64,000 nt of DNA from the human T2T-CHM13v2.0 reference genome, Homo sapiens. Location: contig CP068257.2 of assembly GCA_009914755.4 (NCBI GenBank), positions 8,800,001-8,864,000 on the forward strand, written 5' to 3'. The translations under genes were made by a program, and so were the position numbers. The notes under the pieces were generated by a model. The model was not told the origin of the DNA. It did not search any database and saw only the letters and a program-made list of their open reading frames with translations. Of the stretch, positions 16,901 through 18,571 are shown in pieces. Each line of letters opens with the position of its first letter. Position 1 is the stretch's first letter.

Positions 16901-16990
16901 AATATCTTAACATAAAAAGTAGACAGAGGCATTCTGAGAAACTTCTTTATCATGTATGCATTCTTCTCCCGGAGTTAAACCATTCTTTTC
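1915..16990 (+). repeat. Alpha-satellite, about 88 monomers, consensus orientation. Family X, with alternating AAAGGGATATTTCTGAGCCCATTGAGG and AAATGGATATTTGGAGCGCTTTGAGG monomer types.
   Basis: Continuous 171-bp periodicity. Divergent A-type monomers with no CENP-B box. Confidence 0.95.
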
Positions 16991-17477
16991 TTTTTTTACT
17001 ATTATTATACTTTAAGTTTAGGGTACAAGTACACAATGTGCAGGTTACTTACAAATGAATACATGTGCCATGCTGGTGCGCTGCACCCACTAACTCGTCA
17101 TCTAACATTAGGTGTATCTCCCAATGTTATCCCTCCTCCCTCCCCTCACCCCACAACAGTCCCCAGAGTGTGATGTTCCCCTTCCTGTGTCCTTGTGTTT
17201 TCATTGTTAAATTCCCACCTATGAGTGAGAACATGTGGTGTTTGGTTTTCTGTCCTTGTGATAGTTTACTGAGAATGATGATTTCCAATGTCATCCATGT
17301 CCCCACAAAGGACATGAACTCATCATTTTTTATGGCTGCATTGTATTCCATGGTGTATATGTGCCACATTTTCTTAATCCAGTCTATCATTGTTGGACAT
17401 TGGGTTGCTTCCAAGTCTTTGCTATTGTGAATAGTGCCACAATAAAAATACGTGTGCATGTGTCTTTATAGCAGCAT
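16991..17477 (-). mobile_element. LINE-1 3' end (3'UTR plus last ORF2 codons, ~0.49 kb), with a short poly(T) at 16986-16997 on the left.
   Basis: Contains the reverse complement of the L1 3'UTR and ORF2 C-terminus (minus-strand ORF 17127-17459: ...[38 protein letters not shown]). Colinearity with L1 ends abruptly at GCAGCAT (17471-17477). Confidence 0.9.
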
Positions 17478-18559
17478 AAAACCAAAGAGAACAAAGACAC
17501 AACATACCAGAATCTCTGGGACACATTCAAAGCAGTGTGTAGAGGGAAATTTATAGCATAAATGCCCACAAGGGAAAGCAGGAAAGATCCAAAATTGACA
17601 CCCTAACATCACAATTAAAAGAACTAGAAAAGCAAGAGCAAACACATTCAAAAGCTAGCAGAAGGCAAGAAATAACTAAAATCAGAGCAGAACTGAAGGA
17701 AATAGAGACACAAAAAACCCTTCAAAAAATTAATGAATTCAGGAGCTGGTTTTTTGAAAGGATCAACAACATTGATAGACTGCTAGCAAGACTAATAAAG
17801 AAGAAAAGAGAGAAGAATCAAATAGACGCAATAAAAAATGATAAAGGGGATATTACCACCGATCCCACAGAAATTCAAACCACCTTGAGAGAATACTACA
17901 AACACCTCTATGCAAATAAACTAGAAAATCTAGAAGAAATGGATACATTCCTCAACACATACACCCTCCCAAGACTAAACCAGGAAGAAGTTGAATCTCT
18001 GAATACACCAATAACAGGCTCTAAAATTGTAGCAATAATCAATAGCTTACCAACCAAAAAGAGTCCAGGATCAGATGGATTCACAGCCGAATTCTACCAG
18101 AGGTACAAGAAGGAACTGGTACCATTCCTTCTGAAACTATTCCAATCAATAGAAAAAGAGGGAATCCTCCCTAACTCATTTTATGAGGTCAGCATCATCC
18201 TGATACCAAAGCCTGGCAGATATACAACCAAAAAAGAGAATTTTAGACCAATATCCTTGAAGGTCGTTGATGCAAAAATCCTCAATAAAATACTGGCAAA
18301 CCGAATCCAGCAGCACATCAAAAAGCTTATCCACCATGATCAAGTGGGCTTCATCCCTGGGATGCAAGGCTGGTTCAATATATGCAAATCAATAAATGTA
18401 ATCCAACATATACACAGAACCAAAGACAAAAACCACATGATTATCTCAATAGGTGCAGAAAAGGCCTTTGACAAAATTCAACAACGCTTCCTGCTAAAAA
18501 CTGTCAATAAATTATGTATTGATAGGTCGTATCTCAAAATAATAAGAGGTGTCTATGAA
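17478..18559 (+). mobile_element. LINE-1 ORF2 reverse-transcriptase fragment (~1.08 kb) in the opposite orientation to the adjacent L1 3' piece. Together they look like a twin-priming-like inverted L1 insertion.
   Basis: Plus-strand ORF 17885-18571 matches the L1 ORF2p RT region ([116 protein letters not shown]...[11 protein letters not shown]...[10 protein letters not shown]). L1 homology ends at CTATGAAAC (~18559) and alpha resumes. Confidence 0.88.
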
Positions 18560-18571
18560 ACTTCTTTGTGA
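17885..18571 (+). pseudogene. L1 ORF2 (RT domain) remnant. It is an internal fragment with no start or stop of the native ORF.
   Basis: The 228-aa ORF has about 90% aa similarity by eye to human L1 ORF2p residues ~380-600. Confidence 0.85.

What the first reader, a model, noticed from the sequence alone, without database searches (positions are those of the whole stretch)
16980..18565. Composite L1 with an internally inverted ORF2 segment (twin-priming-like) and a large internal gap
An L1 3' end in minus orientation (16991-17477) abuts an ORF2 RT segment in plus orientation (17478-18559) at a sharp junction (GCAGCAT|AAAACCAAAGAG). Read on the L1 sense strand, the structure is [inverted ORF2 ~aa 240-600][direct 3' end]-poly(A). 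That is the layout produced by twin priming. In canonical twin priming the two segments are nearly contiguous in L1 coordinates. Here I estimate about 1.7 kb of L1 missing between them, without exact computation. Alternatives are two independent insertions at one site, or a post-insertion deletion. The flanking alpha monomer phases differ by about 55 bp or 116 bp and no clean TSD is visible. Some target-site deletion therefore probably accompanied the event.
Basis: partly seen in the sequence, partly recalled or inferred. Interest (0 to 1): 0.6.

Follow-up and report, generated by a model that had tools for sequence, protein, structure and literature searches.

The report
Inverted, gapped L1 in alpha satellite
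This is one old primate LINE-1 insertion in centromeric alpha satellite whose 5' part was copied in backwards, leaving 1.65 kb of the element out; it is a known by-product of LINE-1 integration and is ordinary apart from the unusually large gap.

Summary
Window 16998-17477 (minus strand) is the L1 3' end: ORF2p residues 1187-1275, the 3'UTR and a 7-nt A run, equal to L1 nt 5548 to about 6029. It directly abuts 17478-18559 (plus strand), which is ORF2p residues 276-635, L1 nt 2813-3895. Read on the L1 sense strand, the order is flank, antisense 3895 to 2813, sense 5548 to the 3' end, A-tail, flank. That is the twin-priming topology, with exactly 1,652 bp of L1 (3896-5547) missing.

Both pieces are equally diverged from a panel of 134 L1 copies: 3.2% for the plus piece and 3.0% for the coding part of the minus piece. 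A contiguous L1 at 26678-28889 shows the same profile along its own length.

The A-tail end sits at a T-rich, endonuclease-type site in the alpha monomer. There is no TSD. The flanks overlap in monomer phase by 51 nt at background identity, which implies a target deletion of about 120 bp (plus multiples of 171 bp). Microhomology is weak: at most 1 nt at the inversion junction and about 2 nt at the 5' junction.

Long-read surveys already list 5' inversions with internal deletions as a standard class of L1 insertion. Only the kilobase size of the gap and the missing TSD are atypical. Interest is low.

The parts
16939..16989 (+). Last 51 nt of the left alpha-satellite flank. It is in the same monomer phase as 18558-18608 but is a different monomer.
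   Evidence: Local alignment gives 43/51 identical (84%), no better than the in-phase background, which has a median of 45/50. P=0.02 for at least 8 mismatches if this were a TSD as old as the L1.
16984..16990 (+). T-rich target site on the nicked strand (TTCTTTTC), read as the L1 endonuclease first-strand cleavage site.
   Evidence: The plus strand reads ..CCATTCTTTT(C) followed directly by T7 and antisense L1. The L1 at 743 sits at the same monomer position and keeps a TSD.
16991..16997 (-). Poly(A) remnant or A-rich 3' terminus (A7 on the minus strand).
   Evidence: Direct reading. It aligns to the terminal A-rich stretch of reference L1 copies.
16998..17207 (-). L1 3'UTR of the direct (non-inverted) piece, L1 nt 5819 to about 6029. 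It has GAG at 5930-5932 and A at 6015, so by those sites (diagnostic values recalled from the literature) it is not L1HS-Ta or pre-Ta.
   Evidence: Reference-anchored alignment. 16 of 222 positions differ from the common panel alleles.
17208..17477 (-). ORF2 C-terminal coding part of the direct piece, ORF2p residues 1187-1275, L1 nt 5548-5818. The stop codon is lost (TGA to TTA).
   Evidence: PDB match to ORF2p 1206-1275, E=5e-33. Coordinates. 8 of 271 positions differ from common alleles.
17477..17478 (.). Inversion junction, joining L1 5548 (antisense) to L1 2813/2814 (sense). Base 17478 is A where both reference continuations have G, so microhomology is 0-1 nt.
   Evidence: Side-by-side comparison with the reference L1 on both strands.
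17478..18559 (+). Inverted L1 piece. It covers ORF2p residues 276-635 (the linker between the endonuclease and RT domains plus the N-terminal part of RT), L1 nt 2813-3895, with one stop codon in 360 codons.
   Evidence: Translation. PDB match E=5e-195 to ORF2p 298-635. blastn to 70 L1 copies, best identity 96.3%. 35 of 1081 positions differ from common alleles.
18557..18559 (+). 5' junction between the inverted piece and alpha satellite. L1 ..CTATGA meets alpha (a/g)GAAACTTC.., so 'GA' is a possible 2-nt microhomology and the boundary is ambiguous by 1-2 nt.
   Evidence: Comparison with the reference L1 and with in-phase neighbouring monomers. This is inferred, because the pre-insertion monomer is not available.
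18558..18608 (+). First 51 nt of the right alpha-satellite flank, in phase with 16939-16989. This implies about 120 bp (plus multiples of 171 bp) of target lost.
   Evidence: Extending the comparison to 222 and 393 nt gives 77-78% identity, which is background.

Best explanation
This is a single LINE-1 (L1PA-type, not L1HS) retrotransposition event by twin priming into monomeric alpha satellite.

Proposed steps:
1. ORF2p endonuclease nicked the window plus strand at the T-rich ..TTCTTTT(C) site of an alpha monomer.
2. That 3' end primed reverse transcription on the poly(A) tail, but synthesis stopped after about 490 nt, at L1 5548.
3. The other DNA end lay about 120 bp (plus multiples of 171 bp) away, so target DNA was lost instead of duplicated. 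It annealed inside the same L1 RNA near nt 3894 through about 2 nt of microhomology.
4. It primed a second cDNA that ran to nt 2813.
5. The two cDNA ends were joined with 0-1 nt of microhomology.

The first cDNA never reached the internal priming site, so L1 3896-5547 (1,652 nt) is absent.

Shown directly: coordinates, orientations, the junction sequences, equal divergence of the two pieces, absence of a TSD, and the phase gap. Inferred: the order of events, a single RNA template, and that the target loss happened at integration.
For: 1. Coordinates and orientation fit twin priming. On the L1 sense strand the order is flank, antisense 3895 to 2813, sense 5548 to about 6029, A7, flank.
2. The outer end of the inverted piece falls inside ORF2, with no poly(A) and no TSD of its own. 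It therefore cannot be a stand-alone TPRT insertion.
3. The A-tail end abuts a T-rich endonuclease-type site. This is the same monomer position used by the L1 at 743, which keeps a 13-15 nt TSD.
4. The two pieces are of equal age. The plus piece differs from common panel alleles at 3.24% of sites, and the minus piece at 2.95% in its coding part and 4.67% overall (Fisher p=0.19). The contiguous control L1 at 26678-28889 gives 3.26% in upstream ORF2, 2.2% in the C-terminal coding part and 7.2% in the 3'UTR, so its 3'UTR excess matches the minus piece. Best single-copy identity is 96.3% against 95.9% for coding sequence.
5. Prior frequencies favour this reading. 5' inversions occur in 18-31% of L1 insertions (PMC2912911, PMC5668948, PMC12016303). 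66% of them carry an internal deletion, explained as the poly(dT)-primed cDNA failing to reach the internal primer (bioRxiv 10.1101/2024.08.27.596794). Only 46% have the two cDNA ends within 20 bp of each other (PMC12016303). About 8 of 44 inverted polymorphic L1s per person also have an internal deletion over 20 bp (PMC8219666).
6. The piece lengths, 1,082 nt inverted and about 490 nt direct, are close to the germline medians of 751 and 571 nt (PMC12016303).
Against: The 1,652-bp gap is far above the reported median internal deletion of 14.5 bp (bioRxiv 10.1101/2024.08.27.596794). There is no TSD, whereas 5'-inverted L1s usually have TSDs of normal length (PMC2912911). Microhomology is weak at both junctions (0-1 nt and at most 2 nt), although about 95% of 5'-inverted L1s show microhomology at the 5' junction, mostly 2-5 nt. 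The subfamily of each piece could not be assigned against labelled consensus sequences. No empty orthologous site was available, so a single event and the timing of the target loss remain inferences.
Confidence: 0.78

Rival explanations
1. Two-template variant: both ends of one ORF2p-induced double-strand break were extended by reverse transcription, but on two different L1 RNA molecules, or with a template switch, and then ligated. The product has the same topology as twin priming but carries no constraint that the two pieces be contiguous in L1 coordinates.
For: It explains the kilobase gap and the target loss without requiring early termination of the first cDNA. Ends of one break extended on different mRNAs have been observed experimentally (bioRxiv 10.1101/2024.12.14.628481). 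The equal age of the two pieces fits this reading as well.
Against: Nothing in the sequence requires two templates. The two pieces do not overlap, so they cannot be compared with each other directly. One RNA with an early stop is the simpler and documented route (bioRxiv 10.1101/2024.08.27.596794).
Confidence: 0.1
2. Post-insertion rearrangement: an ordinary 5'-truncated L1 of about 3.2 kb (nt 2813 to the 3' end) in minus orientation later suffered an inversion of 2813-3895 together with deletion of 3896-5547, and a separate deletion in the flanking satellite.
For: The satellite array is rearrangement-prone; alpha-satellite orientation flips four times in this window. Equal divergence of the pieces is also expected under this model.
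Against: The outer inversion breakpoint would have to coincide exactly with the L1/flank boundary. No reverse-complement alpha satellite lies at 17477/17478. Three or more breakpoints are needed. No homology exists between L1 2813 and 5548 to drive recombination.
Confidence: 0.07
3. Two independent L1 insertions, a plus-oriented fragment and a minus-oriented 3' end, that came to abut, with later deletions removing the 3' part of the first, the poly(A) of the first and the TSDs.
For: Four L1s lie in 64 kb, so the region has been hit repeatedly. The plus piece alone resembles an endonuclease-independent insertion: 3'-truncated, no poly(A), no TSD.
Against: The two pieces abut to the base, with alpha satellite rather than upstream L1 to the left of the A-tail. 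No TSD surrounds either piece. The divergences are indistinguishable. Several coincident deletions are needed. Chance abutment of two insertions is orders of magnitude rarer than a 5' inversion.
Confidence: 0.05

Closest known systems
5'-inverted L1 insertions made by twin priming (Ostertag & Kazazian 2001, as cited and described in PMC2912911, PMC12016303 and bioRxiv 10.1101/2024.08.27.596794)
   Same: Two abutting L1 segments in opposite orientation. The direct one carries the 3' end and A-tail at a T-rich nick site. The inverted one comes from further upstream in L1, with its higher coordinate at the flank. Segment lengths are typical.
   Different: The gap between the two segments is 1,652 bp rather than a few to tens of bp. 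There is no TSD. Microhomology is minimal.
L1 insertions with both internal inversion and internal deletion, from long-read catalogues (xTea, PMC8219666; '5'-del + 5' inv + i-del' class in bioRxiv 10.1101/2024.08.27.596794; SVAN twin-priming-with-deletion class, PMC12350158)
   Same: It has exactly this architecture. [quoted passage not shown]
   Different: Those are young, polymorphic or somatic L1HS insertions. This is an older fixed L1PA copy in alpha satellite, with a gap at the far tail of the reported size distribution.
L1 insertion-associated target-site deletions, reported at about 4-8% of insertions (PMC12016303, which scores only 5-25 bp gaps; larger deletions are seen in cell-culture assays cited in PMC2912911)
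   Same: The TSD is absent and the flanks are not contiguous in satellite phase.
   Different: The deletion size is known only modulo the 171-bp monomer (about 120 + 171n bp). It cannot be shown to have happened at integration.
Endonuclease-independent L1 insertion at pre-existing breaks (PMC1920257)
   Same: No TSD, target loss, and an L1 piece lacking poly(A) (the inverted piece).
   Different: The composite does have an A-tailed 3' end at a T-rich endonuclease-type site, so endonuclease-independent entry is not needed.

Membership tests
Primate LINE-1 (L1PA lineage) | Sequence encodes L1 ORF2p and carries the L1 3'UTR | tested here: met
   E=5e-195 and 5e-33 to solved human ORF2p. 96% nucleotide identity to L1 contigs with an intact 1275-aa ORF2.
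L1HS (Ta / pre-Ta) | ACA or ACG at 5930-5932 and G at 6015 in the 3'UTR (diagnostic positions recalled from the literature) | tested here: not met
   The minus piece has GAG at 5930-5932 and A at 6015. Panel members L095 and L113 show ACA at the same columns.
Twin-priming 5'-inverted L1 | Two L1 segments in opposite orientation that abut directly, without filler | tested here: met
   Junction at 17477|17478, with at most one untemplated or ambiguous base.
Twin-priming 5'-inverted L1 | The non-inverted segment contains the L1 3' end with poly(A) next to a T-rich endonuclease site | tested here: met
   A7 at 16991-16997 preceded on the plus strand by TTCTTTT(C). The tail is short.
Twin-priming 5'-inverted L1 | The inverted segment derives from L1 sequence upstream of the direct segment, and its higher-coordinate end faces the 5' flank | tested here: met
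   The inverted piece is 2813-3895 with 3895 at the flank. The direct piece starts at 5548.
Twin-priming 5'-inverted L1 | The segments are nearly contiguous in L1 coordinates (small deletion or duplication at the inversion point) | tested here: not met
   The gap is 1,652 bp. Larger gaps are a documented minority (PMC8219666, PMC12016303), so this lowers typicality, not the mechanism.
Twin-priming 5'-inverted L1 | A TSD of normal length flanks the whole composite | tested here: not met
   No TSD. The 51-nt in-phase overlap of the flanks is 84% identical, which is background. Other L1s in the same array keep TSDs or phase-contiguous flanks.
Twin-priming 5'-inverted L1 | Microhomology at the 5' junction and at the inversion junction | tested here: inconclusive
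   About 2 nt ('GA') is possible at the 5' junction and 0-1 nt at the inversion junction. The pre-insertion target is unknown.
Twin-priming 5'-inverted L1 | Both segments have the same age and source subfamily | tested here: inconclusive
   Divergence is indistinguishable (3.24% against 2.95% coding; p=0.19 overall) and matches the profile of a contiguous control L1. The plus piece carries 11 of 12 young-lineage states. No labelled subfamily consensus was available, and many panel contigs are mosaic assemblies.

The most novel reading that the evidence does not exclude
The kilobase gap, the lack of a TSD and the near-absence of microhomology together could mean this is not classical single-RNA twin priming. 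Instead, both ends of a resected ORF2p-induced double-strand break in satellite DNA may have been extended on separate L1 RNAs and then end-joined. That would be a fixed germline example of the 'both ends extended on different templates' intermediates so far described in cancer genomes and cell models.
Probability: 0.1. Interest if true: 0.25.

Novelty: already known. Interest (0 to 1): 0.12.

Why it matters
It matters little beyond annotation. The locus should be annotated as one L1 insertion event with a 5' inversion and an internal deletion, not as two elements. This affects counts and dating of L1 insertions used to age layers of pericentromeric alpha satellite. It is also a worked example showing that kilobase-scale gaps and target loss can accompany 5' inversion in fixed germline copies.

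Tried and rejected
Khan et al. 2006 (PMC1356131), Szak et al. 2002 (PMC134481) and Ostertag & Kazazian 2001 (PMC311219) are not held. I built an unlabelled panel instead: 80 metagenomic and 54 'bacterial-genome' L1 contigs, which are human or primate contamination.
- My first age proxy counted bases never seen in any panel member. I rejected it as a large undercount, because with about 70 diverged copies most substitutions recur by chance. I replaced it with differences from alleles present in at least 10% of near relatives.
- I tried to link the ORF2 haplotype to the 3'UTR haplotype across contigs covering both regions, in order to place the two pieces on one subfamily ladder. This failed because those contigs are mosaic assemblies.
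- I searched for the same locus elsewhere using the exact products of three ORFs: 17885-18571 and 17939-18571, which span the L1/alpha junction, and 17127-17459. Nothing was on record, so no orthologous or empty site was obtained.
- I looked for a high-identity paralogue of the flanks inside the window to reconstruct the target. There is none; the array is monomeric at about 82% identity.
- A 51-nt long TSD was rejected: 84% identity, equal to or below the in-phase background, P=0.02.
- A TSD around the minus piece alone was rejected. The shared AAACCA hexamer is L1 sequence on one side and does not extend.
- The per-insertion gap table of PMC12016303 (Table S12) lies beyond the stored part of the supplement. 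The fraction of inversions with gaps over 1 kb could therefore not be quantified.

Full report
**Setting.** The 64-kb window is monomeric alpha satellite. Any two registers are about 82-83% identical, and there is no higher-order repeat or high-identity paralogue. Four stretches do not match alpha satellite: 743-1914, 16990-18557, 26678-28889 and 30888-32290. All four contain an L1 3' end that reads antisense on the plus strand. Alpha satellite has the same orientation on both sides of the finding.

**Observation.**
- Frame 3 of 17478-18559 on the plus strand is an almost open ORF2 reading frame, with one stop in 360 codons.
- It matches solved human ORF2p structures (8uw3, 8sxt, 9k6g, 8c8j) at E=5e-195, query 23-360 against ORF2p 298-635. 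The piece therefore spans residues 276-635.
- The reverse complement of 16984-17477 matches ORF2p 1206-1275 at E=5e-33 and starts at residue 1187.
- For nucleotide coordinates I fetched L1 copies that contaminate metagenomes (80 loci) and bacterial genome assemblies (54 loci).
- Contig L003 has an intact 338-aa ORF1 and 1275-aa ORF2. Subtracting 48 from its coordinates gives L1.3-type numbering (ORF1 911-1927, ORF2 1991-5818). In this numbering the Ta-diagnostic ACA falls at 5930-5932 in panel members L095 and L113, where I recall it from the literature.
- On this scale the plus piece is L1 2813-3895. The minus piece is L1 5548 to about 6029 followed by A7.
- The missing interval is 3896-5547, which is 1,652 bp.
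Only the amino-acid range needs correcting: 276-635, not about 240-600.

**Junctions.**
- *Inversion junction.* The antisense piece matches the reference perfectly up to 17477 (L1 5548). From 17479 the sense piece matches from L1 2814. Base 17478 is A, whereas both possible reference continuations (antisense 5547 and sense 2813) are G. This gives 0-1 nt of microhomology and no filler.
- *5' junction.* L1 ..CTATGA(C) meets alpha ..(G)AAACTTCTTTG. In-phase neighbouring monomers read aGAAACTTC or aAAAACTTC, so 1-2 nt ('GA') may be shared.
- *3' junction.* The plus strand reads CCATTCTTTT(C), then T7, then antisense L1. This is a T-rich endonuclease-type site (TTTT/N or TTTC/A).
- The older L1 at 743 entered at the same monomer position and still shows a 13-15 nt TSD, TGAA[C/G]CATTCTT.

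**Target site.**
- There is no TSD.
- The last 51 nt of the left flank (16939-16989) are in the same monomer phase as the first 51 nt of the right flank (18558-18608). They are only 43/51 identical.
- The right-flank segment matches in-phase monomers elsewhere in the array with a median of 45/50.
- Extending the comparison to 222 or 393 nt gives 77-78% identity.
- If the 51 nt were a TSD as old as the L1, about 3.3 mismatches would be expected. Eight or more has P=0.02.
- The flanks are therefore different monomers, and about 120 bp (plus multiples of 171 bp) of target is missing.
- The other three L1s in the array have TSDs or phase-contiguous flanks. The anomaly is specific to this insertion and is not due to erosion with age.

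**Same age?** I anchored all copies to the reference and counted positions where a window copy differs from every allele present in at least 10% of near relatives. The contiguous control is the simply 5'-truncated L1 at 26678-28889.

| Element | Region | Differences | % |
|---|---|---|---|
| Plus piece | ORF2 (L1 2813-3895) | 35/1081 | 3.24 |
| Minus piece | ORF2 C-terminal coding part | 8/271 | 2.95 |
| Minus piece | 3'UTR | 16/222 | 7.2 |
| Minus piece | whole piece | 23/493 | 4.67 |
| Control L1 | upstream ORF2 (L1 3860-5547) | 55/1687 | 3.26 |
| Control L1 | ORF2 C-terminal coding part | 6/271 | 2.2 |
| Control L1 | 3'UTR | 16/222 | 7.2 |

- Plus piece against whole minus piece gives Fisher p=0.19.
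- The control shows the same profile along its own length, so the 3'UTR excess is a property of that region or of the panel, not a sign of a different age.
- The best single-copy identities agree: 96.3% for the plus piece and 95.9% for the minus coding part.
- The plus piece carries the young-lineage state at 11 of 12 sites that separate young from old panel copies.
- The minus piece has GAG at 5930-5932 and A at 6015, so by those remembered diagnostic sites it is older than L1HS-Ta and pre-Ta.
- A divergence of about 3% would correspond roughly to L1PA3-L1PA5 age. This rests on my memory of published rates and is not tested here.
- A labelled subfamily call was not possible, and the panel contigs are mosaics.

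**Interpretation.** On the L1 sense strand the locus reads: flank, antisense 3895 to 2813, sense 5548 to the 3' end, A-tail, flank. This is what twin priming produces. One DNA end primes on the poly(A). The other anneals internally and primes a second cDNA towards the RNA 5' end. The two cDNAs are then joined (PMC2912911).
- In that study 66% of 5' inversions carried an internal deletion, with a median of 14.5 bp.
- In another long-read study only 46% had the two cDNA ends within 20 bp of each other. Germline medians were 751 nt for inverted cDNAs and 571 nt for non-inverted ones (PMC12016303).
- xTea reports about 8 of 44 inverted polymorphic L1s per person with an additional internal deletion over 20 bp (PMC8219666).
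- The architecture is therefore a catalogued class. Only the 1.65-kb size of the gap and the missing TSD are atypical.

**Rivals.**
- *Two independent insertions.* These would need base-exact abutment, loss of the plus element's 3' half and poly(A), and loss of all TSDs. Alpha satellite, not upstream L1, lies beyond the A-tail.
- *Post-insertion inversion plus deletion of a 3.2-kb L1.* This needs a breakpoint exactly at the L1/flank boundary, and no inverted satellite is seen at the junction.
- *Two-RNA or template-switch variant of twin priming at a resected break.* This cannot be excluded, and it would explain the large gap and the target loss together. Such intermediates are described in bioRxiv 10.1101/2024.12.14.628481.

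**Verdict.** The feature is an ordinary, already known kind of L1 insertion product, a 5' inversion with internal deletion, in pericentromeric monomeric alpha satellite. It is atypical only in gap size and target-site loss. No orthologous or empty site could be retrieved, so a single event remains a strong inference rather than a demonstration.

Noticed in passing
window 20591-20618, 40329-40338, 44193-44198, 53080-53082: Alpha-satellite monomer orientation flips sharply four times in the window, with no intervening non-satellite DNA. These are inversions within the monomeric array.
   Followed up: no
window 743-1914: An older L1 3' fragment, about 6-7% diverged, inserted at the same monomer position (..GAACCATTCTT/T-run) as the composite's A-tail end. 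It keeps a 13-15 nt TSD, TGAA[C/G]CATTCTT, which suggests this monomer site is a preferred endonuclease target.
   Followed up: partly
window 26678-28889: A simple 5'-truncated L1 (L1 nt about 3850 to the 3' end) has the same divergence as the composite (3.26% against 3.24% in ORF2), so the two insertions are about the same age. Its flanks are contiguous in monomer phase with little or no TSD.
   Followed up: partly
window 743-790 and 26678-26710: Extra non-L1 bases lie between the T-run and the L1 3' end (GGAGCTCTGGG..TTTATTTATTT and TTGAAGAGATTTTAGC..). They may be (TAAA)n-type tails or short 3' transductions.
   Followed up: no
window 30888-32290: A fourth L1 3' fragment, about 5-6% diverged, has a short TSD (~TTCTGT) and possible microhomology at its 5' junction.
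   Followed up: no
loci L081-L134 (e.g. BMTN01000049.1 Streptomyces kurssanovii, LZSH01000356.1 Mycobacteriaceae) and L001-L080: Primate L1 sequences sit in many contigs deposited as bacterial genomes or as marine or gut metagenomes. This is human DNA contamination. Several look like chimeric consensus assemblies; L003, for example, has intact ORF1 and ORF2 but an older-type 3'UTR.
   Followed up: partly
window 17208-17210 (minus strand): The ORF2 stop codon of the minus piece is lost (TGA to TTA, L1 5817 G>T), so a 110-aa ORF runs into the 3'UTR.
   Followed up: yes
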